The position numbers and the translations under genes are program-made. From Marsupella aquatica (taxonomy: Eukaryota > Plantae > Marchantiophyta), in NCBI GenBank assembly GCA_973895155.1, contig OZ316898.1:35540-99539 (forward strand): a DNA stretch of 64,000 nucleotides, given 5' to 3'. The stretch's first letter is position 1. Every line of letters starts with the position of its first letter. The notes beneath the pieces were generated by a model, which ran no database searches, was not told where the DNA came from, and worked only from the letters and a program-made list of their open reading frames with translations. Shown one piece after another: positions 14,918 through 64,000 of the stretch.

Positions 14918-15081
14918 TGTTGTAACCATTTACTCTAGACCATGGTTAACCCCTAACCCTATCCTGAAGGGGTAACATGGGTTAACACCAACCCCAACAT
15001 GTAACCCTATGGTGACTATATAAGTCACACCCATAATGGAACACAACAGCGAGTTGCAAGTCTCTCCATTGTCACACAACA
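14918..15081 (+). repeat. 3' LTR of the copia element
   Basis: Identical to the 5' LTR; preceded by the PPT at 14909-14917. Confidence 0.95.
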
Positions 15082-22500: not shown

Positions 22501-23730
22501 GACCGGAACTCCTTGTCAGGCAAGGTCTTCCTGGTATCAACTTTGGTCTTATTGCCTATCGGCAAGCCAAACACTTCGGCAATCACTTTGGGAGTAAGAT
22601 AGAAATCCTTCCCATATATCCTCGTGCAATTGGTCTCGGGTTCCCATGACCCCACGAATTCTAATAGGTCTGACTCCGGTACCTCCGGCTTCAGCCATGG
22701 TAATCTTACAAAGGCCTCTAAGCCGGATCCGGCCATGAAGCCTTGATACTTCTTGGTCTGCATGGCCGTAAAGCATGCATCCTCCTCCCGTGCAAAATGT
22801 AGTTGCACCTCCACCGATAGGGTTGCCGCCCAGCCCTTCCAGGTGTCATCCCTGGTTGGAATGGCCTTGATGGGATCGACCTCCTCTTCTTTGGCTTCTC
22901 CCTGCCTCCTGCTTTGCTGCTCGATTGGCTTCTTTGGTGCCGCCGACCTCATTCTTTTTGCCGGGGTGGCTTCATCGTTGACGGCTCCCTTCCTCTTCAT
23001 CTCTGCTGCCGTGGAGGTTTCTCCTAGCACCGTTGCCTGGGTCCACCTTTCCGTGCTACCCTTTAATTCCCAGTGTATGTCGTTGCAATTCTTGATGGCC
23101 TCTCGGATGCCAACGACGCTGTCTTTGCAAAACAGAAGATCGTCGAGTTAATTGGAAGTAGGAGTCCACAAGAACTCGTCCTTGATGAGTTCGCCTCCTA
23201 AGAAAGCCGTCTTCTGCAGCTCCCACAATCGAGCGAGCTCCTGCCGTTCTCGAGCTGCCCTTTCTGATTCCTCGTCCTCGTAAGTCTTGATGTACTCAGT
23301 TGCCCGTTCGAACAGGCATCCCCAGAAATGTGCCACTTGATTGACGTTGCTCATACCCTCCTTAGGTTGATCGTCGGTATCTACTCTCTCCCCGAGTGCT
23401 TGCCTAAGCAGCTGACAGTAGTTGGCCTCCCGTAGTCGTCTGCCTAGTTCGTGCTCACAACTGAGCCACCATCTCCTGCAAGCGCTCCTTACCCCTCTCC
23501 TCTTCAGGTCCTTCCTCCCGTTGATCCTTCCTAGCCGCCGACGCTTAACGCGCCCTAACCCTAATTGAGTTTTCACCCCCAGCGTCCTTACCTCCGGCCT
23601 CGGCCCAGGTTCCATGGTCGCCCCTAATTGTTTATATTTTCCTTGTTTTGTCCCTATACTAAGGTGTTTCTAGGGTGCCTTCCTGCTTTACCCACTTAAC
23701 TGGCCGAGTGATTCCTGTCTAGACATCACA
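19513..23730 (-). mobile_element. Solo LTR (4,218 bp) of the coding-LTR gypsy family
   Basis: Reverse complement of LTRs 46156-50850 and 57075-61730; TG...CA termini; TSD GTTGC on both sides. Confidence 0.95.
19969..23615 (-). pseudogene. Disrupted copy of the LTR-encoded PMD-like/coiled-coil protein
   Basis: Fragments 23615-23148, 23030-22368, 22307-21648 and 21404-20160 are colinear with ORF 57151-60813. CAA/CAG-to-stop changes and one frameshift near 20170. Confidence 0.9.
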
Positions 23731-35310: not shown

Positions 35311-35738
35311 CCCGTTCGAACAGGCATCCCCAGAAATGTGCCGCTTGATTGACGTTGCTCATACCCTCCTTAGGTCGATCGTCGGTATCTACTCTCTCCC
35401 CGAGTGCTTGCCTAAGCAGCTGACAGTAGTTGGCCTCCCGTAGTCGTCTGCCTAGTTCGTGCTCGCAAATGAGCCACCATCTCCTACAAGCGCTCCTTAC
35501 CCCTCTCCTCTGCCGGTCCTTCTTCCCGTTGATCCTTCCTAGCCGCCGACGCTTAACGCGCCCTAACCCTAATCGAGTTTTCACCCTCAGCGTCCTTACC
35601 TCCGGCCTCGGCCCGGGTTCCATGGTTGCCCCTAATGGTTTATATTTTCCTTGTTTTGTCCCTATACTAAGGTGTTCCTAGGGTGCCTTCCTGCTTTACC
35701 CACTTAACTGGCCGAGTGATTCCTGTCTAGGCATCACA
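35311..35738 (-). mobile_element. Truncated 5' end (~430 bp) of the coding LTR
   Basis: Matches the start of the LTR (TGTGATGCCTAGACAGG) and the first ~100 codons of the LTR ORF (MEPGPRPEVR...FWGCLFER). Confidence 0.9.
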
Positions 35739-44610: not shown

Positions 44611-46155
44611 TGTAAGAGGTGGAAAACTGAGACTGTTTGGGCATTGTTTTCGTGGAATGTGAGAGAAATTTATCCGCCAGAATGCTTCGCTAACAATGTT
44701 GCCTCGCTAGCAAAATCTCCTGTTTCCTCGCACCGTACAATTCCTCTACCTCAAGCATTTCAGAGAGGACAACCAGATTACCAAGCCACTAACCAGTACG
44801 GTAAGGAGGTACCATGCTTGGGTCATTCGCAAGGCCCTAATCGGATGGGTGAGGCCTGGAGAAGGGCTCTTTCATGTCAAGGGGACCTAGGCTGGTTCTG
44901 GAGTCCAGGAATAAGGAGGTTAAGGAGTGGAGTCCTTAAAGCCAACATGGAGGGTACCTAAGGACCTGAGTTACATGGAGACTTTGGAGGAACTTGGAGG
45001 GCCATTGGAAGTTGATCCCTCTACTATTTTTAGAGCTATTTGGTAGATAGGGATGACTGTACTTTGGAGGCTGACTTAGTCCCTGTTTTGGAGGGATAGG
45101 ACAGCCAAGTCAGGAGGTGAGGTGGACCTGAATGAAGGGCTAAAATCAAGGAGTTGATTTAGGCTTTCAAAAGGCCACCAACTAGCTCATTAGTTAGGTA
45201 AGACAAACAAGTGAGTTAGTGAGATAGTTAGGAGGATAAGTAAGGATCTTTGACCCCCTTGAAAGGTGGGCTGGTCTTCTTTTAGTGGTAAGTCACTTGC
45301 TGGCCTTTGGGGTGGTTTTGGACTTTGTGATGAATTGAAGCCAAGCAAGGAGTACTTAAGTTGGTGTGAGTTACTTTGTGTGGGTCCAAGGATGGAGAAT
45401 CAAGGAGTAGCACTAAGAGACCTTAGGGGAACTAAGGTAGATGTTCTAGGGGTACTAGAACTCAAGTGTATGCCTTGAGGCTTGAAAGGACCATAGTGTT
45501 AAGTAGTAGGAGTTGAAGAAGCTAAAGTATAGCAAGTAGGTAGTGACAACCTACCCATGTACTTCCTTTGAAATTCTTATGAAATTTCAGCGCGTTTATG
45601 GGAAAGAAATTATTGATGTGCACTCATCTGAAATCTTGAGGCCCTTGTGGTCTAGCATGTTGCTCATATGATTGTTGTGAGCCCAGAAGTCTTCTCTTTG
45701 GGAAAGGGAGACTTAGATTAGTTGTCTTGCCGGGTAGGGGGACATTTCCAGCGGTGGAAACCAAAGAATACCCATTTCTGGTGACGGAAACCAAATACAT
45801 CTGCACAGTCTCAAGGAGAAGCAAAGGCTTAATGGAAATAGAGGTAGTTCCTTCTTATGGAGCGTCCCTCTCGTAGTTCCTGGTGATAAAGAGCTATCAA
45901 GTGCAAGCTTTTAGTACAATAAGGCTTATTAGCTCATAAGCGAGGGTTTGACATATAGTGTCACTCTTGTTTTTGGCGCCACTGCCGGGGAGAACTGATC
46001 TGAAATCTCAGGTCAGGGGAGCCACTAACCAAGAAGGAAGATTTCTTTGATGGTAGGTTGAAGGGGCATGCCCTGCACTAGGAGTCAAGGATTTCAAGAA
46101 AGAGGCCATCTTACTTTGGAGGAAGAGATACTTGAAATTCAAAGAGAGGTGGAAG
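44611..46155 (+). mobile_element. 5' part of an older Athila-like gypsy element: LTR (about 44611-45970), tRNA-Asp-type PBS (45974-45991), gag start at 46068
   Basis: PBS TGGCGCCACTGCCGGGGA. MPCTRSQG...REVE continues in frame after the nested element (from 61736). Confidence 0.7.
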
Positions 46156-49100
46156 TGTGATGCCTAGACAGGAATCACTCGGCCGGTTAAGTGGGTAAAG
46201 CAGGAAGGCACCCTAGGAACACCTTAGTATAGTGACAAAACAAGGAAAATATAAACAATTAGGGGCAACCATGGAACCCGGGCAGAGGCTGGAGGTAAGG
46301 CTGAGGGTGAAAACCCGATTAGGGTTAGGGCGCATTAAGCGTCGGCGGCTAGGAAGGATCAACGGGAAGAAGGACCGGCAGAGGAGAGGGGTAAGGAGCG
46401 CTTGCAGGAGATGGTGGCTCATTTGCGAGCACGAACTAGGCAGACGACTACGGGAGGCCAACTACTGTCAGCTGCTTAGGCAAGCACTCGGGGAGAGAGT
46501 AGATACCGACGATCAACCTAAGGAGGGTATGAGCAACGTCAATCAAGCGGCACATTTCTGGGGATGCCTGTTCGAACGGGCAACTGAGTACATCAAGACT
46601 TACGAGGACGAGGAGTCAGAAAGGGCAGCTCGAGAACGGCAGGAGCTCGCTCGATTGTGGGAGCTGCAGAAGACGGCTTTCTTAGGAGGCGAACTCATCA
46701 AGGACGAGTTCCTGTGGACGCCTACTTCCAATCAACTCGACGATCTTCTGTTTTGCAAAGACAGCGTCGTCGGCATCCGAGAGGCCATCAAGAACTGCAA
46801 CGACATACATTGGGAATTAAAGGGTAGCACGGAAAGGTGGACCCAGGCAACGGTGCTAGGAGAAACCTCCACGGCAGCAGAGATGAAGAGGAAGGGAGCC
46901 GTCAACGATGAAGCCACCCCGGCAAAAAGAACGAGGTCGGTGGCACCAAAGAAGCCAGCCGAGCAGCAGAGCAGGAGGCAGGGAGAAGCTGAAGAGGAGG
47001 AGGTCCATCCCATGAAGGCCATTCCAACCAGGGATGACACCTGGAAGGGCTGGGCGGCAACCCTACCGGTGGAGGTGCAACTACATTTTGCACGGGAGGA
47101 AGATGCATGCTTTACGGCCATGCAGACCAAGAAGTACCAAGGCTTCATGGCCGGATCCGGCTTGGAGGCCTTTGTAAGATTACCATGGCTGAAGCCGGAG
47201 GTACCGGAGTCAGACCTATTAGAATTCGTGGGGTCATGGGAACCCGAGACCAATTGCACGAGGATATATGGGAAGGATTTCTATCTTACTCCCAAGGTGA
47301 TTGCCGAAGTGTTTGGCTTGCCGATGGGCAATAAGACCAAAGTTGATACCAAGAAGACCTTGCCTGACAAGGAGTTCCGGTCGTTCCCCGGGCCATCAAC
47401 GAAGAATGGCTTCTTCCGGAACACCTGCACCAACCCGCACATAGGAGAGATGATCGACTTCTTGCGGGTGACCATGCATTGTAACTTGCCGAGGGCAGAG
47501 ATCGGCAAGGCACAGGTCTATCTGGCAGAAAGGCCAGACCCAAGCCGGGACTACAACGGGTACCTCCTCAACCAATTGAAGAAGATCTTAAAGGAGGAGC
47601 AGCAGGTAATCGGCATGGGGAGCGTGTCGCGGCTTGGCTATCACATGCCGCTGTTGTGCCGGTATGCCAGAGGTCAGACTTTTGCCCCGGTACTTCCCCT
47701 GCAGGTAAGGGCACCCGAGGAAGCTCCAACGCCGAGGCCGTTGGCTGAGAAGCCTCAACCACCTGTTAGTCCTACGATCGAGCAGGTGTTTAGGCCCAGG
47801 AAGGAAGACTTGCCGATGCAGCAACCAGGCATGCAGAGTCTGCTGAAACTACTGGAGAAAGAAAAGAAATCGGCATCGGCAACAACAACGGCAACGGCAA
47901 CAATGCAGGACACTACTACAGAGGTAGGCCTACACCGGCTCACAAGAGAAAACCCCTTTGCTGGAGACAAGGAGAGAATCAGGCCGGAATCCAAGCCAGG
48001 TGTTCGAATGTACGTGGGAACCTCAAGCTCCAAATTTGAGGCAGAATTGCCTGAAGCTCCTACCGAGGAAGAGGAGAGGGAGAAGCCGGACGTCCAAGAG
48101 GTAGAGGAGGCAGTGGAGGACTGCAGCCATGATAATTCCGGCTATGGGTCGGACCATCACGTTCCAGGAGTAAGGACCTGTGGCCGGTTTGTCCCCACAC
48201 TTCCAAGGGTAGTGCGAGGGGACCCCAACCAGCAGAGTAGCCCTGAGTCTCCCCCACCAGATGTTGCTCCCCCGAGCTTCGACGGCATAAAACAGACGGT
48301 GCAGGAATTTCAGGAGCGAATCAAGCAGGAGGAAGAGGCCGCCCTGGCTAAGGAAAAGGATTTACCAGGAGGAGATTGGCCGGAGGACATCAGGCGGCTA
48401 GCCGAAAAAGGAAGCAAACCTCTAGCCACGATTGAAGAGATCCGCAGGACGGCTTGGGAGCAGAGGCCACGATGGGCGATGCCGATCACTTCTACTTACT
48501 CCACCTACGCTAAGAATAGAGCCATGGAGTATGGTGAGATGTGTGGGGAACTTGCGCTCGGCATCTTTGGAGAGGAGTTGGAGGTAGGACCCTTTTTCCA
48601 TAGGGAGCAGTTGGAGAAGCACCAATTAGAAGAAGCGGTGGCTTTAGAGAGAAGCAAGAAGGACGAGGTCATTCGGCGGTTTAGGAGGATGGAAGCCGAG
48701 ATTGAAGATCTAAGGGCGGCCAAGAAAGCCCAAGATGAACTGCGGATTAAATGACATGAGCTGAACATCATGCAGGGGCAGTTGGACACCGCGCAGGCTG
48801 ATAATCAGAATATCAAGGATAAACTGACTCAGACGCAGGAAGAGTTGGCCGACACGATCAAAGAGAGGGAGAAGTGGAAGCAAGAACTGAAGAATACAGA
48901 GGAGGCCCACATAACAGCCAACAGCCGGGCCATGGCGGAGACCCAAAGAAAGGAATGGGCGTTGAAAGGGGAGCTCGAGAAAATCCGCGGAGCCCTTGAG
49001 CAGAAGGAGGTCGAGTTAGGGAAATCCTATCAAGGGATTATGGCGCTGCAGCAGGAGCTTGCGTCCCTGACGGCCAGCTTCAAGGCCGACCTAAGGGAGA

Positions 49101-50850
49101 AGGACGAGATGCTCGAACAGACTTACGCCAAGATGAACCAGATGGAGTCTGTCATCATTGCAGAGCTCGACAAGGAGCTAAGAGCAACCCAGGAGGAGAG
49201 GGCTACCTTGAAGAAGGAATTGGAGGAAGCCCACAGGGAGCAGGAGGAGGCCAAAAACGAGCTGGAGGGGGCACGTAAGGACCTGGATGAAACCCAAGAG
49301 GAGTTGGAGGAAATCACGAGGAAGATGGAGAACCTACAGCGGCGGGCCGACAACCAAACAGAGCGGCTGAAGAAACAAGCCGCAGTATTTAAATGCTTAG
49401 CTGCAGCAGGTCCATCTCCCGTTGGGACAAACCAGTTACCAGGGGTGGTAATTGCCGAAGGACAAGCCGCGCCACCTGCACCAGTGCCGGAAGTAAGTGG
49501 GAAGGGGAAGGGACCAGCTGCCGAGCCACCAACGAAGAAGAAGCGGAAACCTTCAGGGTCAAGGAGTAATACGACTTCACAGGCCGTGGTGATCAAGGAG
49601 GTAGACCCAGCACCGACCCCAGACAGGGTCACGGCTAAGGATCCAACTACCCTAGGGGAAGGGGAGGCCGAAGCCGTGGGAGTGGCTGAGGCCGAAGCCG
49701 AGGGAGTGGCTGAAGCCGAAGCCGTGGGAGTGGCTGAAGCCGAAGCCGTGGGAGTGGCTGAGGCCAAAGCCGTGGGTATTGCCGAGGCCGGTGTCGAGGC
49801 TGAAGCCGAAGGTGGACCCAGTCAGGCCGATGGAGAGTTGACTCGGTCAAGGGCAGGTAATCTGTCAGTAGGCGGGCCAACGGCAGTGGCTGAGGAGGAA
49901 GTGTTGGGGGCGTCCATTGAGGATCCACCACCGGTGTCGTGACGGTGCAAGGGCGCCGTTCCTTTTAGGGAGGGCGGAGGCGTGAGTGGGCAGGGCGGGC
50001 ACGGATCTCCACGTTTAGGATTAGGATCAGAACCAGGAACGGCCCTGACACTTAGCTTAGTGGGATTGCGGTCCCACTGGTAGGAGCAACACTTGTGCTC
50101 CTGCCTTGCTGTACATAGGTAGATTCGGGCAAGTAGATTACTGTTAAGTAGATTAGGCTTACGATGCAAAGAATGGCGGATCCACTACCAGGATAAGTAC
50201 CTGGGCAGCGGGGAGCTCAGGGCCTCTTCTTTAGCAAGTTTTTAGTTTGCACCAGCCGGGCTGGGATCAAGTAGTACGAGAAGCTCTCGGTTAGTCATAC
50301 AGTGACCCTTGTGTATATTCATGTTTCCTCATGCCTAAGAGCTGAATAGAGTTGGCCTCACGGCTTAGTTCGCAGAACTTGTGTATGAGATGTACTGTTT
50401 GTATGGCAAGTGCATGGTATGACTCAGTCAGAAGGAGTCATTTTGCTATTTGTGTGTCGCATTAACTTGTGTGAAGAGTGCCCACATCAACAGAAGGAAG
50501 GAAAGTAAGCAGGGGAGTGAGAGTTGGATGTGTCGAGCTGAGAGAGGTCTTAGCGGCTTAACCAAGCCTATTGGGGATCATTCCGGCGGCGGAATCCAAA
50601 CATACCTAACAAGACGGAGGGGAAGACAGGGGAAGACAGGGGAAGGCCTATATTAGGCCGGCTACGTATCTCATGACTCGATGAAGGATCTGTCCAGTAT
50701 ATGTGTGTAAAATCTTAATAGTAGTAGTAGAAGGTTAGCAGCGTCCCATGCCGCTAAGCCGCGGAAACAGCCTCGCCAAGCTCGAAACCTGCGGGAATCG
50801 GCTTGAGCTGGGGGGTTTCTTGGGTTTAGGGAGCCATGGGACGCACCACA
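46156..50850 (+). repeat. 5' LTR (4,695 bp)
   Basis: Nearly identical to 57075-61730; the length difference is explained by 48-bp, 10-bp and 1-bp indels. Confidence 0.95.
46271..49942 (+). pseudogene. 5'-LTR copy of the LTR-encoded protein, with one CGA-to-TGA nonsense mutation at 48752
   Basis: ORFs 46232-48754 and 48770-49942 are in the same frame and match 57151-60813. Confidence 0.92.
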
Positions 50851-50854
50851 TTTT

Positions 50855-50872
50855 TGGTGCTAGATGGAGGGG
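50855..50872 (+). promoter_or_regulatory. PBS, probably tRNA-Asn type
   Basis: TGGTGCTAGATGGAGGGG, 4 nt after the LTR; close to the complement of the plant tRNA-Asn 3' end (TGGCGCTAGAAGGAGGGG, recalled sequence). Confidence 0.65.
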
Positions 50873-50919
50873 GCATTTCTTAAGCCGTGAGATATGAAGT
50901 TAGAACGGAAGCGTAGGTA

Positions 50920-53913
50920 ATGACTGACCTTACGCCGAGGGAAGAAAGAGTGATTCAACGGGAGAGAGCTCGACTGCAGCAGCTCGCCGGGTGGCATGAT
51001 ACACAGCGACTGAGAGGGGCAGAAAGAGCTGGTAGCTCCGAAACTGGAAGTGGCGTCGAAGAAGACATACCAGAAGAAGAGTCGGTAAGGAGAAGTGAGT
51101 CTCCAACCGACATGGGGGAACCAGAGGCACGGCCAGACGAGAGGCCAGGGACCAGATTGAGCCAGCGGTCGCGCATACATTACAAGGCATTTCATGGGAG
51201 AGGAGATGAGGATCCGGACGAATGGGTGGATGATTTCGAGGGAACCGCTGCAGCAAATGGAGAATCGGCCATCAAGATGCAGATTCTTCCCGGCCTGTTC
51301 AAGGGTGAGGCTAGGCCTTGGTACAGAGCATTAGATGTGGAAGATCAAGCCATCTGGGATATCTTCAAAACACTCTTTGTTAAGGAGTTTCGACCCATTG
51401 GAACTTCAGAACTAGCAGTGCTGAAGTTGGGACAACTTCGGTTCAAGGAGAACAAATCCTTCAGGAAGTTCTTGGAACGCTTTCAGAAACTGGTAAGACG
51501 TACAAAGACCAATGCATCTGAAGGTATGCAACTTCAATGGTTAGTGAATGCTTTGCCACAGAAGATGAGTTTGCAATTAGGAAGGAGAACCCGGAGACTT
51601 TAGCCGAAGCAATTAAGGATATTCAATTATACATTAATGCAGATATCACAAGCCAGAAGAAACAGCTTAAGTCTGAGAGTTCCTCATCAGAGGAGGGATC
51701 ACCCCATAAGAAAAAAGATAAGAAGAAGAAACATTCCAAGAAGTCTAGAAGTGATAAGTCAAGCTCGGATAGTGGGAGTAGCAAGAGTGAGTCATCTTCT
51801 AGTTCTGAAGAAGAAAAAAACTAGGAAAAGGAAGGGCAGAAGGAGAGGGAAGACGAAAGTCAAGATGGAGGCTAAGCCACCAGATAACATCGTAGCCCTT
51901 ACCGAGCAACTTAAGGCTATCATTGCAGAGGTAAAACCAAAGAAGAAGGTAGTACAGGAGGATAGCTCTGTATGGTGTGCCTTATGTTATAAAACCGGAC
52001 ACCATAAAGATGCGTGTCCTAAGCTTAATACTAATCATGTTCGGCATGTGGCCGAGATCAGACCATGTCAGGGAGAAGTAGAGTACTTTTTGGGAGATGC
52101 CGCTGATAGTGTTTTCGGCATCAGTGAGACTGGAGCACGAGACCTATCCAACAGACCTGCATCTCTGTGGTCAGGGTTAAGGAACAATCCAGGAGAGATG
52201 TATCCTCGGATTATTCAGAACACGTCAGTACCTCCTAGGCCGAATGTGCAAAGATTTGCGGCGTGCTATAATTGTGGTCAACCTGGCCATTTTGCTAGAG
52301 AATGCCCGAATGCACGCAAACAGGGTGATGGACAACCAGCTCAGCTATGTATGGGATGCCGACAGGAAGGTCATATGCTAGGGCAATGTCCTACTTGGTT
52401 GGCAGGCCTGGCCGCAAATCATAAGCTTTTGCCGATCAAGATCTTACCGCCAGGTACTACCCCCGGAGGAGTTCAAATCAACCACATCGAACTAGGATGG
52501 CAAGAGGATGCCGAGGCAGAGTTCGTACCATCTGATGATGAGGCCGAAGCCCTATCAACCTTCTCAGAGGAGGATTTAGATCATGATTGCTACCGGGTCT
52601 CTACTCGATCTACCAGAAGGAAGGAAAGGTGGGATGGGCTGGCCAAAAATAAAGGGAAGGTTACGGAGGAAAGGATCGACTCTTCGTCAACATCAACAGA
52701 AGGAGAAGGGAGGGCTCCGGCAATACAGGTAAGCCATGAGCCCACCAGTGAAACCAATCCTTCACAAGATAGCGACTTCAATCGAGATCATCCTAAGTTG
52801 TTCTACCCCTCTGTTACGGCTAGTGTTAAGGAACAACTAAGAGAATTAGAAACCCTGGAGAATACCGAAGCCATTGCCAAGGATGTAAAACGAGCAAAAG
52901 CATTGTTTGCTTCGGAAGACCCAACAGCTGTGGAGACTAGCGTGGCAAAACTGGCCGAATCCAAGACGGAAACACCACCAGAAGAGAAGTCGATTGTTCC
53001 CTATGACCTGGCTAAAGATGTACTAGAATCTAGAGTCTCGGCAACAGTAGGTCAACTATTGAAAAATAGCCCGTACTTCCGGAAGCAATTAAGGAAGGCT
53101 ATTCTCGGCAAGCCGAGATTACCCAAGGTAGCAACCAGATCCGACGTACTAATGATAGAAGAAGATCAAGGAGCCCCAGCATTACCATTAATGATTCAAG
53201 GAGAATTATTACTACGGGTACCCATCGATGGAGGATCAGGGGTATGTATTATGATTGATTCAACAGCAAAAGGGTGGGGTCTAACACCGGAGATGACTGG
53301 AAGAGTGTTGAACATGGCCAATGGATATCAGGTCATTCCGACGGGAGTGTTAACCGGCATCAAGACAGAGATAGGAGGTATCTTCTTTAGCATTAACTAT
53401 GTAGTAATGAAGCCGGTAAATCCTACGTCATTCCGGCTATTGATTGGTAGGCCATGGCTGTACCTAGCCGAGGTAATAGAAGATTGGGGTAAAAAGCAGT
53501 TCACTTTCGGGACCCCCTCTATCACGGTATCCTGGGACACTAAGGATGACCGTAGGAAAAGCATAAGGGAAGTAGATGGGTACGACAGTGGACTGGAGTC
53601 AGCCGATGAAGTACGTTGGTTAGAATGCCTCACTAACCTAACCGAAGAAGGTGTCTTTGGACTAGAGGTACCCCCCAGCGGATTATGGCAAGAACCAATG
53701 GAAGGTGACTTGGAAGAAGAAGACAAAGAGGTCGAGGACTGCTTTACAATAGAATCCACCTTTTTAGCTGCAATTCCGGAGGAAGTAAAGGATGTAGACC
53801 AATTGGATGAAACGGCTAAGTGGGGAGCAGTAGCAGGGACAGTGGATTTTCTGCAGGCGTTGTGGCAGAGCCGACGGGGTCCACAACGCCATCGATCATC
53901 GGCAAGGAATTAA
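50920..53913 (+). CDS. Gag (three CCHC knuckles) plus aspartic protease, with two compensating frameshifts around 51570-51820
   Basis: FHGRGDEDPDEW capsid-like motif; CALCYKTGHHKDAC, CYNCGQPGHFAREC, CMGCRQEGHMLGQC; IDGGSG...LLIGRPWL. Confidence 0.85.
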
Positions 53914-56900
53914 ATACCAAGGGATCGGCATACAAGCCGATTACGAGGGCAGAACAAATTGAGGCCCTATTAGAAGCCGAGAGAGCACAGCGGCCTAACT
54001 CTCAGGAGCAAGAGGTGGATGAGATGGACAGACACGATCTAGAGCCAAGGCAGGAAGGGGAGCCGACCACTAATTCAAAACCGAATAGACCGGTAAGGGG
54101 ACAATCTATGGACACCAAGGAAGGGACCGACTCGGCTAGTCCAGCCGAGATCCCAGTTTATGGAGGTATGAGATTAGAGAGACTGGAAGCCGAACTGGAC
54201 CCGAATTTGAAGAAGCAGATTAATATGATCCAAGCACGGCAATATCGGAAGCTCGACTTAGGAGAGGGAAGAGAACTGAACTTAGGGAGAAACCTAGCAC
54301 CTGAGCTCGAGAAAGAGATCAGTGACTTATTGATTGAATTTCAGGATGTGTTTGCATGGAGTCACCAAGATCTAAAGGGAGTAGATCCAACACTAGGGGA
54401 ACATCGAATTGATCTCATGTTAGGAGCCAAATCATTTTGACAACCAATTCGAAGGATGAACCCGAAGTATTCCCTGCTGGTCAAAACAGAAATCGACAAA
54501 CTAGTGGAAGCTGGATTCATCACTCCAGTCCTGCATTCAGACTGGGTGTCTCCAATTGTGATAGTTCCCAAGAAAGCTGGACCCGATGGTAAACCCAAGA
54601 TCCGGGTTTGTCAGGATTACAGGAAGCTGAATGAAGCAACATTAAAAGACCATTTTCCTTTACCGTTTACTGATATGGTACTAGACATGGTAGCCAGTCA
54701 TGAACTATATTCATTCATGGATGGATACTCTGGTTATAACCAAATCAGGATTCGGCAGGAAGACCAAATCAAGACGGCCTTCATCACGGAATGGGGGATC
54801 TATGTCTTCAATCGTATGCCGTTTGGACTCTGCAACGCACCAGCTATGTTCCAACGATTAATGGTGAACATTTTTCATGATTACTTGAGAAAGTTCATGG
54901 AAATCTTCATTGATGACTTTGCAGTATTCGGGAAGGCATCGAAACATGCTAAATACCTCAGGAAAACCTTCATGAGATGTAGAGAGGTGGGTCTCAAGTT
55001 ACACCCAGATAAATGTTTTTTTGCAGTAACCGAGGGGGTGCTACTAGGTCACAAGGTATCAAGGAAGGGCATTGAGATTGACAAAGGTAAGCTAGCAGTA
55101 TGGCTAGATATCATGCAACCTAAGAACATAAAGGATGTAAGATCCTTCTTGGGATGCATTGGTTACTATCGCCGGTTCATCAAGGATTTTGCCAAGCTGG
55201 CTTTACCATTAACCAATATGCTCAAGGCAGGAGCAGACTTCGAACCCACACCCGAACGAGTCACAGCGGTGGTAGAATTGAAGCAGATGTTAGTAGAGGC
55301 CCCAGTCATGATAGCACCGGACTGGAACAAAGATTTTCATGTTTTTGTAGATGTCTCGGGCTTCTGTATTGGCTCAGTACTAAGTCAGTTGGATGAGAAA
55401 GGAAGGGACCATCCCATATACTTCGCAAGCCGTCAGCTTGCCGATGCCGAACGTAACTACTCTACCACGGAAAGAGAAGCATTAGGAGTCATTTATTCTT
55501 GTAAAAAGTTTAGGCATTATTTACTAGGGTACAAGGTAATCTTTCATACTGATCATGAAAGTTTGAAGTACCTAGTCAATAAGCCGGACCTTACAGGCAG
55601 AGTAGCAAGATGGATTTTGCTATTACAGGAGTTTGACTATGAGCTGAGGATCAAGCCGGGAAAGTTACATGCCAATGCCGACTTCTTTTCAAGGATCACA
55701 GGTAAACCTGCCACGGATTGCATCGATGATCGATTCCCCGACGAGGAGCTATTCGTTGTGGAAATAGCTGGTACATGGTACCCTGAGATTTTACAATTTC
55801 TCAGCACTTCCAGATTACAGCCAGGATTAAGCCGAGAGCAAGCCGCAGTCTTTGTGCGGAAGGTCAGACAGTATCAGTGCATTAAAGGCATACTGCACAA
55901 GCATGGAATCAACGGCACGATTCAAAGATGTTTGGAAAAGAGAGAGGTAAAACGAGTCCTACGGGCCATGCATGGAGAGGAGGCCGGAGGACATTTTGCC
56001 CCAGTAACCACGTCTAAGAAGATATTAAATGCCGGTTACTGGTGGCCCACCTTGCACAAAGATGTCTATCAGTTTATCAAACAATGCGATCCTTGTCAAC
56101 GAGCGGGAGGACCAAGGGCGTCCACCAGGCATCCACTGCACCCTATTCTACCTCTGGCACCATTCGAGAAGTGGGGTATTGATTACATTGGACCTCTGAA
56201 ACCACTGACCCACCCTCGACGGAACAAGTACATAATCCTGGCTACGGATTATGCAACTAAATGGGTAGAGGCCAGACCAACAACGAAGGATGATGCAATT
56301 ACTACGGCTAGATTCATGTATGAGCAGATCTTCACCAGGTATGGAGCACCCCTAGAATTAGTTAGTGATAGAGGAACCCATTTTTTGAATGATATAATTA
56401 GTCGTTTAAATGAGCAGTATTTAGTTAAACATAGGCCTACTACTCCCTACCATCCAAAGGCAAACGGGTTGACAGAACGAGCAAACGGGATCATAGGAAA
56501 GATATTGAACAAGACAGTAGCTCAGAACAAACTTGATTGGGATGATAAATTGTTTGCTGCTGTTTTTGCTTACAATCTTGCCTATAAATCCACTACCGGT
56601 CATACACCCTTCTTCTTAACCTTTGGACAAGAAGCCCTGGTACCCATGCAACTTGAGATACCGACATTTCAAGTTACAATTGAGGAAAGAGCCTCAACGG
56701 AGGAGAGCCTAAAGGAGCGAGAATATAGGTTAGAAGCTTTAGAGGAAGCGAGAATGATTTCAGCCGAGAGAGTAGAATATAGACAGAATATCATGAAGCA
56801 GCAGTATGATAAAAGGTTAAAAGTAGTTAGTATTCATACCGGTGATCTTGTGCTACTTTATGACAGTAGGTATAGTAGGTTTCCAGGAAAGCTTTACACT

Positions 56901-57086
56901 CGCTGGTTAGGACCCTTTAGAGTAACCATGATGTTCCCCAATGGCTCCGTGCAATTGGCCAACATTACGGGAGAGGTATATCCAGTTCGCATCCATTATG
57001 ACCGCCTCAAGAAATACTATATGGACGAAGATGAAGTTGTTCGCGAGGACGCTTCACAATTAAGTGGGGAGCTATGTGATGCCTAG
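53820..57086 (+). CDS. Pol: RT, RNase H, integrase (-1 frame relative to Gag-PR), with one internal TGA at 54438-54440
   Basis: RVCQDYRKLN, MPFGLCNAPA, FIDDF, FVDVS, TDH, HHCC zinc finger, GIDYIGP/SDRG/NGLTER, WLGPF. Confidence 0.92.
53844..53903 (+). promoter_or_regulatory. Candidate -1 programmed ribosomal frameshift signal
   Basis: In-frame G-GAT-TTT, 5-nt spacer, perfect 10-bp stem GGCGTTGTGG/CCACAACGCC; loop GCCGA can pair with downstream TCGGC. Confidence 0.72.
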
Positions 57087-60000
57087 ACAGGAATCACTCG
57101 GCCGGTTAAGTGGGTAAAGCAGGAAGGCACCCTAGGAACACCTTAGTATAGTGACAAAACAAGGAAAATATAAACAATTAGGGGCAACCATGGAACCCGG
57201 GCAGAGGCCGGAGGTAAGGCTGAGGGTGAAAACCCGATTAGGGTTAGGGCGCGTTAAGCGTCGGCGGCTAGGAAGGATCAACGGGAAGAAGGACCGGCAG
57301 AGGAGAGGGGTAAGGAGCGCTTGCAGGAGATGGTGGCTCATTTGCGAGCATGAACTAGGCAGACGACTACGGGAGGCCAACTACTGTCAGCTGCTTAGGC
57401 AAGCACTCGGGGAGAGAGTAGATACCGACGATCAACCTAAGGAGGGTATGAGCAACGTCAATCAAGCGGCACATTTCTGGGGATGCCTGTTCGAACGGGC
57501 AACTGAGTACATCAAGACTTACGAGGACGAGGAGTCAGAAAGGGTAGCTCGAGAACGGCAGGAGCTCGCTCGATTGTGGGAGCTGCAGAAGACGGCTTTC
57601 TTAGGAGGCGAACTCATCAAGGACGAGTTCCTGTGGACGCCTACTTCCAATCAACTCGACGATCTTCTGTTTTGCAAAGACAGCGTCGTCGGCATCCGAG
57701 AGGCCATCAAGAACTGCAACGACATACATTGGGAATTAAAGGGTAGCACGGAAAGGTGGACCCAGGCAACGGTGCTAGGAGAAACCTCCACGGCAGCAGA
57801 GATGAAGAGGAAGGGAGCCGTCAACGATGAAGCCACCCCGACAAAAAGAACGAGGTCGGCGGCACCAAAGAAGCCAGCCGAGCAGCAGAGCAGGAGGCAG
57901 GGAGAAGCCGAAGAGGAGGAGGTCGATCCCATGAAGGCCATTCCAACCAGGGATGACACCTGGAAGGGCTGGGCGGCAACCCTACCGGTGGAGGTGCAAC
58001 TACATTTTGCACGGGAGGAAGATGCATGCTTTACGGCCATGCAGACCAAGAAGTACCAAGGCTTCATGGCCGGATCCGGCTTGGAGGCCTTTGTAAGATT
58101 ACCATGGCTGAAGCCGGAGGTACCGGAGTCAGACCTATTAGAATTCGTGGGGTCATGGGAACCCGAGACCAATTGCATGAGGATATATGGGAAGGATTTC
58201 TATCTTACTCCCAAGGTGATTGCCGAAGTGTTTGGCTTGCCGATGGGCAATAAGACCAAAGTTGATACCAGGAAGACCTTGCCTGACAAGGAGTTCCGGT
58301 CATTCCCCGGGCCATCAACGAAGAATGGCTTCTTCCGGAACACTTGCACCAACCCGCACATAGGAGAGATGATCGACTTCTTGCAGGTGACCATGCATTG
58401 TAACTTGCCGAGGGCAGAGATCGGCAAGGCACAGGTCTATCTGGCAGAAAGGCCAGACCCAAGCCGGGACTACAACGGGTACCTCCTCAACCAATTGAAG
58501 AAGATCTTAAAGGAGGAGCAGCAGGTAATCGGCATGGGGAGCGTGTCGCGGCTTGGCTATCACATGCCGCTGTTGTGCCGGTATGCCAGAGGTCAGACTT
58601 TTGCCCCGGTACTTCCCCTGCAGGTAAGGGCACCCGAGGAAGCTCCAACGCCGAGGCCGTTGGCTGAGAAGCCTCAACCACCTGTTAGTCCTACGATCGA
58701 GCAGGTGTTTAGGCCCAGGAAGGAAGACTTGCCGATGCAGCAACCAGGCATGCAGAGTCTGCTGAAACTACTGGAGAAAGAAAAGAAATCGGCATCGGCA
58801 ACAACAACGGCAACGGCAATAATGCAGGACACTACTACAGAGGTAGGCCTACACCGGCTCACAAGAGAAAACCCCTTTGCTGGAGACAAGGAGAGAATCA
58901 GGCCGGAATCCAAGCCAGGTGTTCGAATGTACGTGGGAACCTCAAGCTCCAAATCTGAGGCAGAATTGCCTGAAGCTCCTACCGAGGAAGAGGAGAGGGA
59001 GAAGCCGGACGTCCAAGAGGTAGAGGAGGCAGTGGAGGACTGCAGCCATGATAATTCCGGCTATGGGTCGGACCATCACGTTCCAGGAGTAAGGACCTGT
59101 GGCCGGTTTGTCCCCACACTTCCAAGGGTAGTGCGAGGGGACCCCAACCAGCAGAGTAGCCCTGAGTCTCCCCCACCAGATGTTGCTCCCCCGAGCTTCG
59201 ACGGCATAAAACAGATGGTGCAGGAATTTCAGGAGCGAATCAAGCAGGAGGAAGAGGCCGCCCTGGCTAAGGAAAAGGATTTACCAGGAGGAGATTGGCC
59301 GGAGGACATCAGGCGGCTAGCCGAAAAAGGAAGCAAACCTCTAGCCACGATTGAAGAGATCCGCAGGACGGCTTGGGAGCAGAGGCCACGATGGGCGATG
59401 CCGATCACTTCTACTTACTCCACCTACGCTAAGAATAGAGCCATGGAGTATGGTGAGATGTGTGGGGAACTTGCGCTCGGCATCTTTGGAGAGGAGTTGG
59501 AGGTAGGACCCTTTTTCCATAGGGAGCAGTTGGAGAAGCACCAATTAGAAGAAGCGGTGGCTTTAGAGAGAAGCAAGAAGGATGAGGTCATTCGGCGGCT
59601 TAGGAGGATGGAAGCCGAGATTGAAGATCTAAGGGCGGCCAAGAAAGCCCAAGATGAACTGCGGATTAAACGACATGAGCTGAACATCATGCAGGGGCAG
59701 TTGGACACCGCGCAGGCTGATAATCAGAATATCAAGGATAAACTGACTCAGACGCAGGAAGAGTTGGCCGACACGATCAAAGAGAGGGAGAAGTGGAAGC
59801 AAGAACTGAAGAATACAGAGGAGGCCCACATAACAGCCAACAGCCGGGCCATGGCGGAGACCCAAAGAAAGGAATGGGCGTTGAAAGGGGAGCTCGAGAA
59901 AATCCGCGGAGCCCTTGAGCAGAAGGAGGTCGAGTTAGGGAAATCCTATCAAGGGATTATGGCGCTGCAGCAGGAGCTTGCGTCCCTGACGGCCAGCTTC

Positions 60001-61730
60001 AAGGCCGACCTAAGGGAGAAGGACGAGATGCTCGAACAGACTTACGCCAAGATGAACCAGATGGAGTCTGTCATCATTGCAGAGCTCGACAAGGAGCTAA
60101 GAGCAACCCAGGAGGAGAGGGCTACCTTGAAGAAGGAATTGGAGGAAGCCCACAAGGAGCAGGAGGAGGCCAAAAACGAGCTGGAGGGGGCACGTAAGGA
60201 CCTGGATGAAACCCAAGAGGAGTTGGAGGAAATCACGAGGAAGATGGAGAACCTACAGCGGCGGGCCGACAACCAAACAGAGCGGCTGAAGAAACAAGCC
60301 GCAGTATTTAAATGCTTAGCTACAGCAGGTCCATCTCCCGTTGGGACAAACCAGTTACCAGGGGTGGTAATTGCCGAAGGACAAGCCGCGCCACCTGCAC
60401 CAGTGCCGGAAGTAAGTGGGAAGGGGAAGGGACCAGCTGCCGAGCCACCAACGAAGAAGAAGCGGAAACCTTCAGGGTCAAGGAGTAATACGACTTCACA
60501 GGCCGTGGTGATCAAGGAGGTAGACCCAGCACCGACCCCAGACAGGGTCACGGCTAAGGATCCAACTACCCTAGGGGAAGGGGAGGCCGAAGCCGAGGGA
60601 GTGGCTGAAGCCGAAGCCGTGGGAGTGGCTGAGGCCGAAGCCGTGGGTATTGCCGAGGCCGGTGTCGAGGCTGAAGCCGAAGGTGGACCCAGTCAGGCCG
60701 ATGGAGAGTTGACTCGGTCAAGGGCAGGTAATCTGTCAGTAGGCGGGCCAACGGCAGTGGCTGAGGAGGAAGTGTTGGGGGCGTCCATTGAGGATCCACC
60801 ACCGGTGTCGTGACGGTGCAAGGGCGCCGTTCCTTTTAGGGAGGGCGGAGGCGTGAGTGGGCAGGGCGGGCACGGATCTCCACGTTTAGGATTAGGATCA
60901 GAACCAGGAACGGCCCTGACACTTAGCTTAGTGGGATTGCGGTCCCACTGGTAGGAGCAACACTTGTGCTCCTGCCTTGCTGTACATAGGTAGATTCGGC
61001 AAGTAGATTACTGTTAAGTAGATTAGGCTTACGATGCAAAGAATGGCGGATCCACTACCAGGATAAGTACCTGGGCAGCGGGGAGCTCAGGGCCTCTTCT
61101 TTAGCAAGTTTTTAGTTTGCACCAGCCGGGCTGGGATCAAGTAGTACAAGAAGCTCTCGGTTAGTCATACAATGACCCTTGTGTATATTCATGTTTCCTC
61201 ATGCCTAAGAGCTGAATAGAGTTGGCCTCACGGCTTAGTTCGCAGAACTTGTGTATGAGATGTACTGTTTGTATGGCAAGTGCATGGTATGACTCAGTCA
61301 GAAGGAGTCATTTTGCTATTTGTGTGTCGCATTAACTTGTGTGAAGAGTGCCCACATCAACAGAAGGAAGGAAAGTAAGCAGGGGAGTGAGAGTTGGATG
61401 TGTCGAGCTGAGAGAGGTCTTAGCGGCTTAACCAAGCCTATTGGGGATCATTCCGGCGGCGGAATCCAAACATACCTAACAAGACGGAGGGGAAGACAGG
61501 GGAAGACAGGGGAAGACAGGGGAAGGCCTATATTAGGCCGGCTACGTATCTCATGACCCGATGAAGGATCTGTCCAGTATATGTGTGTAAAATGTTAATA
61601 GTAGTAGTAGAAGGTTAGCAGCGTCCCATGCCGCTAAGCCGCGGAAACGGCCTCGCCAAGCACGAAACCTGCGGGAATCGGCTTGAGCTGGGGGGTTTCT
61701 TGGGTTTAGGGAGCCATGGGACGCACCACA
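57075..61730 (+). repeat. 3' LTR (4,656 bp), preceded by PPT TAAGTGGGGAG
   Basis: Match to the 5' LTR; TSD follows at 61731-61735. Confidence 0.95.
57190..60813 (+). CDS. Intact LTR-encoded protein (1,207 aa from the first ATG; 1,220 aa from GTG at 57151): basic N-terminus, PMD-like domain, long coiled coil, low-complexity tail
   Basis: Uninterrupted 3.6-kb ORF entirely within the LTR. LLEFVGSWEPETN...GKDFYLTPKVIAEVFGLP resembles the PMD core. About 250 aa of E/K/L-rich heptads. Confidence 0.85.
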   Translation: MEPGQRPEVRLRVKTRLGLGRVKRRRLGRINGKKDRQRRGVRSACRRWWLICEHELGRRLREANYCQLLRQALGERVDTDDQPKEGMSNVNQAAHFWGCLFERATEYIKTYEDEESERVARERQELARLWELQKTAFLGGELIKDEFLWTPTSNQLDDLLFCKDSVVGIREAIKNCNDIHWELKGSTERWTQATVLGETSTAAEMKRKGAVNDEATPTKRTRSAAPKKPAEQQSRRQGEAEEEEVDPMKAIPTRDDTWKGWAATLPVEVQLHFAREEDACFTAMQTKKYQGFMAGSGLEAFVRLPWLKPEVPESDLLEFVGSWEPETNCMRIYGKDFYLTPKVIAEVFGLPMGNKTKVDTRKTLPDKEFRSFPGPSTKNGFFRNTCTNPHIGEMIDFLQVTMHCNLPRAEIGKAQVYLAERPDPSRDYNGYLLNQLKKILKEEQQVIGMGSVSRLGYHMPLLCRYARGQTFAPVLPLQVRAPEEAPTPRPLAEKPQPPVSPTIEQVFRPRKEDLPMQQPGMQSLLKLLEKEKKSASATTTATAIMQDTTTEVGLHRLTRENPFAGDKERIRPESKPGVRMYVGTSSSKSEAELPEAPTEEEEREKPDVQEVEEAVEDCSHDNSGYGSDHHVPGVRTCGRFVPTLPRVVRGDPNQQSSPESPPPDVAPPSFDGIKQMVQEFQERIKQEEEAALAKEKDLPGGDWPEDIRRLAEKGSKPLATIEEIRRTAWEQRPRWAMPITSTYSTYAKNRAMEYGEMCGELALGIFGEELEVGPFFHREQLEKHQLEEAVALERSKKDEVIRRLRRMEAEIEDLRAAKKAQDELRIKRHELNIMQGQLDTAQADNQNIKDKLTQTQEELADTIKEREKWKQELKNTEEAHITANSRAMAETQRKEWALKGELEKIRGALEQKEVELGKSYQGIMALQQELASLTASFKADLREKDEMLEQTYAKMNQMESVIIAELDKELRATQEERATLKKELEEAHKEQEEAKNELEGARKDLDETQEELEEITRKMENLQRRADNQTERLKKQAAVFKCLATAGPSPVGTNQLPGVVIAEGQAAPPAPVPEVSGKGKGPAAEPPTKKKRKPSGSRSNTTSQAVVIKEVDPAPTPDRVTAKDPTTLGEGEAEAEGVAEAEAVGVAEAEAVGIAEAGVEAEAEGGPSQADGELTRSRAGNLSVGGPTAVAEEEVLGASIEDPPPVS

Positions 61731-61735
61731 GGAAG

Positions 61736-62264
61736 CAGAATTTAGAGATCGACGGTCTGAAGGGAGCCCATCTGAAGAGACCAGTGAAGGGACACTTGCA
61801 CAAGAAGCGTGGAGTGAATCATTCGAAGAAGAAGAAGCTCCGACGGTGCTAGTCATGGCTGCAACACAAAGGGCAAGGTTTCAGTATAAACCTTTCCATG
61901 GGAAAGCTAAGGAGGACCCTGACGAGTGGGTAGAAGACTTTGTTGGAACTGCTGAAGCCAATGGTAAGGATGCTATCAAGTTGACTACATTGGCTGGTGT
62001 CTTGAGAGGAGAAGCTAGGCCATGGTACAAAGGGCTGCCTGCTGTGACAAAGGGTGATTGGAATTTGTTTAGAGTTGCTTTTCTACAAGAGTTTCGGAAG
62101 GTGGGAGAGGAGAGTGAAGCTCTTATCAAGATTGGCCGGCTGAGAATGTCAAGTGAAGAATCAGTTTGAAGTTTTCTACAGAAGTTCCAAAGAGTTGCCA
62201 GAAAGATAGATCCAGCTCTAGATGACTCTATGTTGATGAGATGGTTTGTGTCCTCTCTACCTAA
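61736..62264 (+). pseudogene. Continuation of the host element's gag
   Basis: YKPFHGKAKEDPDEWVEDF...WFVSSLP, homologous to the gag at 50920; in frame with 46068-46155. Confidence 0.8.
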
Positions 62265-64000
62265 TGTGGTGCATCCCATGGCTCCCTAAACCCAAGAAAC
62301 CCCCCAGCTCAAGCCGATTCCCGCAGGTTTCACGCTTGGCGAGGCCGTTTCCGCGGCTTAGTGGCATGGGACGATGCTAACCTCCTCCTACTATTACTAT
62401 TAGCCTTTTACACACATATACTGGACAGATCCTTCATCGAGTCATGAGATACTTAGCCTATAAGTAGTGGGTAATTCCAAAAGCATGAAGAAACTGAAAT
62501 TTTTTAAATTTTTTACGATGTTTAGACTGCAATTATTGCTAACTATAACTAAAACAGCATTCAAAGTTACTAAGTTCCTAAGTTACGAGTTTACTAGTTC
62601 ACTGCTTTACGAGTTACACCTTAAGATTTGGCGACCCTGTGATCATGACATCTTACAACTAGTTCAACGGGACTCCACAACGGATGAAGAGCTCACCTTG
62701 AAAGGGAAGGAATGCAAGACATAGGCGCTCATTACTGACTTCTCTTCCACCTTACCTCTCAAACTCTGCCCAGCTTCAACCGGTATTTCAGAGATGTCAA
62801 ATGGAGACTTTGACCCTTCTATTCCAGGATGATGAGTAGTGATGAGTTCCTGTTTCATTATCCTCAAGTGTATGCTGCTACCTGCAACAACTATGATGTG
62901 ATCGGGATGTACAGAGAAGCTCTTCGTATAGATTCATGTTATTTGATGAAGAGAATGCCTCTGATGTATCCTGAGAGACAACTGAGATGCCTACCTTACT
63001 CCAGAGGATCCCCACGCCAAGCTGAGCTGATAGAGGTTACTCAGAACCGAACTGTTACCCTTGTGGAGTTACTAGAACCAGAGGACATCCGACAGCAAGC
63101 TTGAAGAAGTCTCTAAGTGTTTTTAGTTAGTTTTACCAGTAGTGCATCTTATCTGATTTTTAGAAATGTGTTCTAGAGCTTTAAAAGCTGTCATACTTCT
63201 TTAGTGTATAGTCTATACCTAGGAAAACCACCCGGCAAAATCTCAGAGTTTTCTGACTTATAGTTAGGAAGTTAAAAATAGTTGAATTCATCAAGTCTTT
63301 ACTTTACCGTGATTACGAGTTACGACTTAGCTTTTACTAGTTTAAGAGTTACTAGTTTACGATTACGAGTTCCGATAGACAGCCGATTACGAGTTAATAG
63401 TTTACTAGTTACGAGTTCATACTTAGCCATTTTTCCGGATTTTCACTTACTGAATCGCCATTTTAAAATTTTGAGGGGTATGAAGAGGCATGTCTCTTCG
63501 ACCCTGTGACCTCTCACTCAGTAGATTTTTACTATAAGACCCCTCTACCACTAGTGTAGATGATGGTAAAGTTTAGCAATTTTTGCCTTTCCTTGGTGTT
63601 CTACCAGTTGATCATGAATGTTAAGAGTTCGAGATCAAGCTTGACACCAGGAGAAGACTTTCCTCCTTCTTGTGGTTTAATCCTTTGAATAAATCATGGG
63701 AAGTAAAATTCCAATTGTGTAAATCTTATGAGATCTGATGACAGATTCCTCTTTGGTGACTCATTACAATCTCCTGAGTTCTTGGAGTTAACTCACTGAG
63801 TTTAAGTCTTATTTGAAATTGATGGATTTTCTTTCGTGTTGCTTAGTACCATCTAAATGTTGAAGTAGCTACCTTTTAGATCTTATGTGAGTACCATTTA
63901 GAAAGAAAGGATAAGACATGTTGACGGCATTTTAAAAGAGTACTCTAGTAAGCAATTTAGATCTGAAAAGCAATATGGATTTGAATCCTGAAGTCTTTTC
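62265..64000 (-). mobile_element. Second nested insertion, sharing the terminal ~190 bp of the coding LTR and running out of the window
   Basis: 62265-62458 is a diverged reverse complement of the LTR 3' end (...GCACCACA). Sequence beyond is unrelated and contains GTTACGAGTT repeats. Confidence 0.6.

What the first reader, a model, noticed from the sequence alone, without database searches (positions are those of the whole stretch)
46156..61730. Ty3/gypsy element whose ~4.7-kb LTRs each encode a ~1,210-aa protein
Seen: a TSD-bounded element in which about 78% of each LTR is one ORF, intact in the 3' LTR and with a single CGA-to-TGA change in the 5' LTR. Because the two LTRs are identical at insertion, the ORF was intact and duplicated by reverse transcription. 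Known: plant Athila/Tat elements carry extra ORFs, but normally between pol and the PPT or before gag. LTR-resident genes are known mainly from retroviruses (MMTV sag, HIV nef overlapping U3) and are far shorter. Inference: the LTR absorbed the accessory gene, so every insertion carries two copies and every solo LTR retains a complete gene plus LTR promoter/terminator signals.
Basis: partly seen in the sequence, partly recalled or inferred. Interest (0 to 1): 0.92.

Follow-up and report, generated by a model that had tools for sequence, protein, structure and literature searches.

The report
Anti-silencing-like gene inside retrotransposon LTRs
A plant jumping gene, likely from a liverwort, carries a 1,200-codon gene inside each of its two end repeats, which are normally non-coding; the protein is predicted to share the fold of a known DNA-binding anti-silencing factor and likely helps the element escape silencing by binding a short DNA word that the element is rich in.

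The parts
46151..46155 (+). 5' target-site duplication GGAAG (repeated at 61731-61735)
46156..50850 (+). 5' LTR, 4,695 bp, TGTG...CACA
46271..49942 (+). Accessory ORF, 5' LTR copy; one in-frame stop at 48752-48754; tail has two extra 24-bp repeat units
50855..50872 (+). Candidate primer-binding site (starts TGG, 4 nt after the LTR); tRNA not identified; no self-priming match longer than 8 nt
50920..53913 (+). gag (Retrotrans_gag, zinc knuckles) and protease region; broken by frame changes
54441..57086 (+). RT, RNase H and integrase; no extra RNase H or chromodomain hit; the stop codon lies 12 nt inside the 3' LTR, so there is no pol-LTR spacer
57060..57074 (+). Polypurine tract inside the integrase coding end, preceded by a GTTCGCG-AGGAC-type block shared with L002 and L004-L008
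57075..61730 (+). 3' LTR, 4,656 bp
57169..57174 (+). TATAAA, 95 nt into the LTR; candidate promoter of the accessory gene (inferred)
57190..60813 (+). Intact accessory ORF, 1,207 aa (1,121 aa if Met87 at 57448 is the start); no transmembrane segment
57970..58620 (+). Conserved domain aa 261-477; predicted VANC21-like (PMD-type) fold; lowest dN/dS
59560..60384 (+). Charged, proline-free, heptad-rich region aa ~791-1065; coiled coil inferred from a crude heptad score
60826..60851 (+). Second purine tract just after the ORF; resembles the post-pol tract of L002 and L003
61449..61478 (+). Hairpin block shared with the unrelated-looking LTR pair at 1972-9201
61529..61537 (+). TATA-like box 200 nt before the LTR end; candidate genomic-RNA promoter (inferred)
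19513..23730 (-). Solo LTR of the same family, TSD GCAAC; ORF from 23615 with three stops, a tail frameshift and a 439-bp non-coding deletion
35311..35738 (-). First 428 bp of the LTR; the ORF start is open
62265..62458 (-). Last 194 bp of the LTR; the match stops just downstream of the TATA-like box

Best explanation
This Athila-like retrotransposon, likely from a liverwort, carries a selected 1,207-codon accessory gene inside each LTR, whose product is predicted to have a VANC/PMD-type DNA-binding fold plus a coiled coil and likely acts as a sequence-specific anti-silencing factor on a GCCG-type word enriched in its own family. Shown: the layout, two copies per insertion and one per solo LTR, purifying selection, the same layout in a sister clade, and the family-specific motif excess. 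Predicted: the fold. Inferred: the gene moved from the usual pol-PPT interval into U3 when the plus-strand primer came to lie upstream of it. It would be transcribed from a promoter near the LTR 5' end, while gag-pol RNA starts near the LTR 3' end. The oligomeric protein would bind the motif and relieve DNA-methylation or Polycomb silencing in cis and in trans, so fresh solo LTRs would stay helper genes. Step odds: real selected gene 0.92; VANC/PMD fold 0.8; U3 position 0.65; anti-silencing through the motif 0.5.
Confidence: 0.52

Rival explanations
1. The gene is real but lies in R/U5, downstream of the single LTR promoter. The genomic RNA would begin with the 1.2-kaa ORF, gag-pol would need splicing or internal initiation, and minus-strand strong-stop DNA would be about 4.5 kb.
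For: In L004-L006 and L008 the best TATA box, with motif arrays upstream and a pyrimidine-rich run downstream, lies 330-460 nt into the LTR and before the ORF. Here the only canonical TATAAA is at +95. The related LTR at 1972-4193 has its TATA about 1.3 kb before its 3' end, upstream of the hairpin it shares with this LTR. Splice-donor-like sites at 46292 and 46388 and acceptor-like sites at 49956 and 50223 bracket the ORF (pattern scan only).
Against: L005 has a second clear TATA with its own motif array 150 nt before the LTR end. The internal homolog in L002 lies on the pol side, which becomes U3 on absorption. The 62265-62458 fragment shares only the part after the distal TATA-like box.
Confidence: 0.3
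2. The protein is a selected accessory factor with a PMD/VANC-like scaffold, but it has another job (integration targeting, chromatin tethering or particle function), and the GCCG excess comes from mutational or codon bias in this family.
For: A shared fold shows no function. The motif is short and unprotected. Functions of plant extra ORFs are described as unknown (PMC7264820, main text read). Host PMD proteins were first described as silencing factors (PMC5418596, search listing).
Against: The excess survives synonymous shuffling, is absent from other elements in the same window (0.9-2.7 per kb vs 13.2), and differs between lineages (GCCG, CCGGA, AGCGC), as VANC targets do.
Confidence: 0.35
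3. The ORF is a decaying relic or a captured host gene carried passively in the LTR.
For: The solo copy and the 5' copy are broken; overall dN/dS of 0.35-0.47 is not very low; the ends of the ORF are neutral.
Against: Breaks are expected after insertion. The synonymous excess is significant in three separate segments. The frame is kept across four organisms' contigs as far as listed. Homologs occur at the matching place in 7 of 80 related loci.
Confidence: 0.06
4. The repeats are independent or tandem insertions, or an assembly artefact, not LTRs.
For: 4.7 kb is near the top of the reported plant LTR size range (about 5 kb; PMC6317226, passages).
Against: Shared TSD, TG...CA ends, PPT and PBS at the right junctions, 29 real differences between the copies, and a solo LTR with its own TSD and the same ends.
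Confidence: 0.01

Closest known systems
Extra ORFs of OTA-clade Ty3/gypsy elements (Athila ORF, Ogre plant mobile domain ORF, Retand Transposase_28 ORF); PMC6317226 (passages and supplement 3) and PMC7264820 (main text)
   Same: Non-chromovirus pol without extra RNase H, 5-bp TSD, large size, a long sense accessory ORF 3' of pol with a globular domain plus a coiled-coil-like region, function unknown.
   Different: Both papers place extra ORFs in the internal region. Here the ORF lies wholly inside the LTR, fills 78% of it, is duplicated per insertion and stays in solo LTRs. No Pfam model of those families passes.
VANC21 of Arabidopsis VANDAL21 (Mutator-like DNA transposon), PDB 9LNK/9LNJ; PMC5735166 (passages), PMC13547354 (passages)
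   Same: Predicted fold over 206 of 217 residues; a coiled-coil region; a transposon-encoded accessory gene; a family-specific short motif enriched in the element.
   Different: Retrotransposon rather than DNA transposon, non-seed-plant lineage rather than eudicot, 8% identity, a dispersed 4-6-nt CG-containing motif also in coding DNA rather than 9-nt tandem arrays; binding and demethylation untested.
Host PMD proteins MAIN/MAIL1/MAIL2; 10.1101/2024.09.27.615353 (passages)
   Same: Reported structural similarity to VANC; act through short DNA motifs against Polycomb silencing; PMD-A clades are retrotransposon-encoded.
LTR-resident retroviral genes, MMTV sag and HIV nef (recalled, no call)
   Same: Coding sequence in U3, duplicated by reverse transcription.
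   Different: About four times shorter or less, unrelated proteins, true viruses.

Membership tests
Ty3/gypsy LTR retrotransposon | LTRs with TG...CA ends, TSD, PBS and PPT | tested here: met
   the PBS is a candidate only, tRNA unidentified
Ty3/gypsy LTR retrotransposon | Domain order gag-PR-RT-RH-INT | tested here: met
   protease recognised by eye, no Pfam hit
OTA|Athila (REXdb) | No chromodomain and no additional RNase H | tested here: met
   one RNase H region, nothing after integrase
OTA|Athila (REXdb) | 5-bp TSD (Phygy and Selgy have 4 bp) | tested here: met
OTA|Athila (REXdb) | Clusters with reference Athila RT/RH/INT | tested here: inconclusive
OTA|Athila (REXdb) | Dominant PBS tRNA-Asp, -Asn or -Ala | tested here: inconclusive
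   This element's PBS differs from the TGGCGCC-type site of L002, L004, L005 and the host element; reading that site as tRNA-Asp is recalled; no tRNA in 10 loci scanned
Known extra-ORF layouts (eORF-5'F/5'R/3'F/3'R) | ORF lies in the internal region, between PBS and gag or between pol and PPT | tested here: not met
   The ORF starts 115 nt downstream of the PPT/TG junction and is present in both LTRs and a solo LTR
PMD / Transposase_28 / Transposase_32 / ATHILA Pfam families | Pfam match above the curated cut-off | tested here: not met
   no such hit. ESM Atlas leads to PF20167 and PF03078 at 0.86-0.87 only; hhalign probability 0.1, though placed on the Transposase_32 domain
VANC-type anti-silencing factor | VANC21-like fold | tested here: met
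VANC-type anti-silencing factor | Element enriched in a family-specific short motif | tested here: met
VANC-type anti-silencing factor | Motif arranged as tandem arrays in non-coding DNA | tested here: inconclusive
   Dense in the non-coding LTR of L005 and L007-L008; dispersed and mostly coding here, apart from a 24-bp tandem repeat in the ORF tail
VANC-type anti-silencing factor | Binds the motif and causes sequence-specific loss of silencing | not testable with these tools
   needs DAP-seq/EMSA and methylome data
env-like ORF | Transmembrane segment | tested here: not met
   maximum 19-residue hydropathy 0.98
U3-resident gene (sag/nef type) | ORF upstream of the genomic TSS and of the poly(A) site | not testable with these tools
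   only pattern-level hints

The most novel reading that the evidence does not exclude
A bryophyte Athila-related clade has moved a VANC-fold, sequence-specific anti-silencing gene into its LTR and co-evolves a private CG-containing address word with it (GCCG here, CCGGA in the sister clade). Every insertion then carries two copies, and solo LTRs, normally the dead end by which hosts remove retrotransposons, remain expressed helper genes that keep the family unsilenced in trans. It would be a VANC-like system in a plant retrotransposon and in a non-seed-plant lineage, which questions the proposed eudicot origin of VANC from captured host MAIN.
Probability: 0.35. Interest if true: 0.92.

Novelty: new variant of a known kind. 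Interest (0 to 1): 0.76.

Why it matters
LTRs are treated as non-coding, and the two surveys read describe extra ORFs only in the internal region, so genes like this may be missed systematically. An LTR-borne gene changes the arithmetic of element removal: LTR-LTR recombination leaves the gene behind. The fold match gives a testable function to the long-unexplained accessory ORFs of Athila/Ogre/Retand-type elements. The protein-motif pairing (GCCG vs CCGGA vs AGCGC) gives a direct swap experiment on whether retrotransposons use VANC-like, sequence-specific anti-silencing.

Tried and rejected
No whole genome is held, so there is no genome-wide copy collection or family dN/dS. The word-index protein search with ORF aa 1-800 found nothing at E<=0.001 among 7,980 scored. 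The 'longer' search with A3 covered only proteins of 1,379-3,935 aa and found none of 4,413, which is uninformative. P0008 among the 18 hits is a bacterial repeat protein and was left out of all alignments. No RNA holder was listed; this says nothing about expression. Depth was not used as copy number. LTR junctions and the internal region in the public runs stay unexamined. Viral contigs gave no relative; Foldseek against BFVD and PDB gave nothing at E<=0.001; the PDB sequence search gave only a weak Mycoplasma hit, E 0.006, treated as chance. No PMD/MAIN structure appeared in the fold searches, so that link rests on papers. The second Atlas search did not complete. L001 first looked LTR-resident, but its post-pol tract is orthologous to the non-terminal tract of L002, so it was dropped as undetermined; L003 ends too early. 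A simple PPT switch does not explain the order of the two tract types (in L002 type B before the ORF and type A after it; here the reverse); the post-ORF match is modest (4 and 8 of 200 shuffles reach it; the L001 tract does not match) and no such tract stood out in L005-L007. Self-priming: no match over 8 nt. Motif protection from deamination: not seen. The sigma-70 scan is irrelevant to a plant and was ignored. The careful tree did not finish. Wright and Voytas 2002, Tanaka et al. 2026 and Sasaki et al. 2022 are not held. REXdb supplements 1 and 3 were too large to read and could contain elements with long coding LTRs. No complex prediction was run.
Full report
Observation. Self-comparison gives one 4.7-kb direct repeat, 46156-50850 and 57075-61730. 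Both copies start TGTGATGC and end GCACCACA, GGAAG flanks the element, a purine tract abuts the 3' LTR and a TGG-starting candidate PBS follows the 5' LTR. The copies differ by 29 substitutions in 4,646 aligned bases and three indels. K2P distance is 0.0063, or 0.24-1.3 Myr at assumed rates of 1.3e-8 to 2.5e-9 (rates recalled). The ORF 57190-60813 (1,207 aa) fills 77.8% of the 3' LTR; the 5' copy has one stop. LTRs make up 60% of the element. The 6,224-bp internal region is gag-pol from end to end, and the integrase stop falls 12 nt inside the 3' LTR. This copy's gag-pol is broken in several places. The element sits in the gag of another gypsy element. A solo LTR at 19513-23730 (minus) with TSD GCAAC and two terminal fragments show the same boundaries.

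Is the ORF a gene? Between the element's own two LTRs, which diverge neutrally, dN/dS is 0.83. Between the 5' LTR and the solo LTR it is 0.35 over the first 1,130 columns (P 1e-9) and 0.12 in columns 260-470. With a null that keeps the mutation spectrum, 58 of 121 changes are synonymous against 36.7 expected (0 of 5,000 simulations; ratio about 0.47). Three segments are individually significant (p 0.01-0.02). The first 88 codons (3 of 10) and the tail (8 of 27) are neutral, with low power. TATAAA lies only 21 nt before the first ATG, so Met87 may be the true start, although the first ATG has the stronger context. Contigs of four public runs from four organisms cover 29-30 of 30 bins of the LTR. 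Of the 40 variants shown (434 more not shown), 36 lie in the ORF, 25 are not among the 3'-versus-5' LTR differences, and 13 of these are synonymous (7.2 expected, p 0.011). The 12 indels shown (6 not shown) all lie at or after 60740. The solo copy has three stops, a tail frameshift and a 439-bp non-coding deletion.

Lineage and layout in relatives. Pol matches liverwort elements best (Calypogeia 65%, also Riccia and Marchantia) and angiosperm elements at about 41-50%. The host is therefore likely a liverwort or other bryophyte (inference). Of 80 loci returned (186 confirmed), 7 carry the accessory domain downstream of pol: L001, L002, L004-L008. The independent links are a profile built without the loci (L002 E 1e-4, L001 E 4e-4) and a profile built from five loci alone (window ORF E 0.002-0.004; P0015, P0013, P0010 at 1e-10 to 5e-9 among 18 proteins); one search is circular for the loci. 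In L004 and L005 the PPT and TG follow pol directly, the other LTR end and the PBS are on the same contig, the termini match as inverted repeats, and the ORF starts inside the LTR. L006-L008 show the same PPT-TG-ORF order without the other end. L002, a circular contig, has the ORF between pol and the PPT and a 1-kb LTR. L001 and L003 are undetermined. In a quick RT-RH tree of 103 rows (46 of the 120 listed protein hits offered, plus loci with enough aligned length), the window and Calypogeia are sister to the clade holding L004-L008 (SH-aLRT 95), with L001-L003 outside. The LTR-resident state thus looks like a clade character, with the conventional state next door. A second purine tract just after the window ORF resembles the post-pol tract of L002 and L003 (8 and 4 of 200 shuffles reach the score), but the order of the two tract types is reversed, so the route of absorption is not settled.

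A family-specific motif. GCCG occurs 13.2 per kb in the element, 3.5 in the rest of the window and 0.9-2.7 in four other stretches (copia, kinase-like ORF, LINE-like ORF, host gypsy); 34% versus 12% of CGs are in this context (P 9e-24). It exceeds synonymous shuffles in the ORF (TGCCGA 13 vs 2.2) and gag-protease (8 vs 1.6) but not in RT-RH-INT. L004-L008 are instead saturated with CCGGA (63 vs 6.7 in the L005 LTR), and L002 has AGCGC in its non-coding parts. The six most skewed of 60 sequences are L004-L008 and this element; these are two independent states, not six, and different hosts may contribute for the loci. VANC21 binds a 9-mer arrayed in non-coding DNA and related VANCs have different motifs (PMC5735166, passages). 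Against a protective role: motif CGs mutate as often as others (11 of 68 vs 22 of 110), and 23 of 25 LTR-LTR transitions are at CG or CHG.

U3 or U5. For U3: two TATA-like boxes in L005 (before the ORF, and 150 nt before the LTR end) and here (57169, 61529), the pol-side position of the internal homolog, and a fragment sharing only the part after the distal box. For R/U5: the proximal TATA is the more canonical one, and a related LTR in this window has its TATA 1.3 kb before its end, upstream of a hairpin shared with this LTR. I put U3 at 0.65.

Comparison with the literature. REXdb (PMC6317226; passages and supplement 3) and the review PMC7264820 (parts 1 and 2 of 3, the whole main text) describe extra ORFs only upstream or downstream of gag-pol in the internal region, and LTRs up to about 5 kb. 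Nine searches listed no paper on a long ORF inside a retrotransposon LTR; two searches returned none, and subscription journals and large supplements were not searched. PMC12844716 (passages) states that whether Athila-type ORFs modulate methylation remains to be investigated. PMC11728184 and PMC3601003 (term searches) added nothing. MMTV sag and HIV nef are recalled. This scan has earlier, unchecked notes on LTR-resident ORFs and on motif arrays in fungal gypsy elements and none on look-alike DNA.

Verdict. The feature is real and selected. Its parts are of known kinds (OTA-type accessory ORF, VANC/PMD fold), but the LTR-resident layout of a gene this large, its spread over a clade, and its pairing with a lineage-specific motif are a new variant. 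The mechanism is plausible and directly testable but unproven. Interest 0.76.

Noticed in passing
window 1972-4193 and 6919-9201 (minus): A second long repeat pair (~2.2 kb, 89-97% alike, LTR-like ends) with no gag-pol ORF between. It carries a 26-bp tandem array containing GAAGCCGTG, the same 9-mer as the 24-bp repeat in the accessory ORF tail, and shares a 37-nt hairpin block with the studied LTR. Possible non-autonomous user of the same factor.
   Followed up: partly
window 9297-15082: Young Ty1/copia element with identical 165-bp LTRs and TSD CATAC; gag-pol in two long ORFs (948 and 654 aa).
   Followed up: partly
window 41338-44588: 3.2-kb element with identical 142-bp LTRs, TSD ATTGT, copia-like termini and no recognised long ORF; probably non-autonomous.
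   Followed up: partly
window 28901-30460 (minus): Uninterrupted 519-codon ORF with a fungal protein kinase match (PF17667, E 7e-6, above cut-off) in a likely bryophyte genome.
   Followed up: no
window 37166-39415 (minus): LINE-like reverse transcriptase ORF (RVT_1, zf-RVT), 749 aa.
   Followed up: no
window 17616-18835, 33991-35030, 23731-24661 and 19238-19512: Tandem arrays of 111, 169 and 122-138 bp; the solo LTR is inserted inside the 122-138-bp array.
   Followed up: partly
window 62458-64000: AT-rich stretch with repeated AACTCGTAA/ACTAGTAA words (6 copies each of several 7-mers) joined to the last 194 bp of the studied LTR; a different U3 or a nested insertion.
   Followed up: partly
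window 45960-46155 and 61731-62264: Host of the insertion is another gypsy element (TGGCGCC-type PBS at 45974, gag 68% alike in DNA over 141 bp to the studied gag), strongly CG-depleted.
   Followed up: partly
window 60075-60675 vs 61275-61730, compared with the solo LTR: Divergence to the solo LTR rises to 8-20% in the ORF's 3' part and drops to about 1% in the last 400 bp, which suggests recombination between subfamilies or constraint on the LTR end.
   Followed up: partly
L004, L005, L006, L007 pol and accessory ORFs: CCGGA saturates coding sequence as well (80-100 vs 32-34 expected in the L004/L005 pol under synonymous shuffling), while L002 pol has lost nearly all CpG (o/e 0.07).
   Followed up: yes
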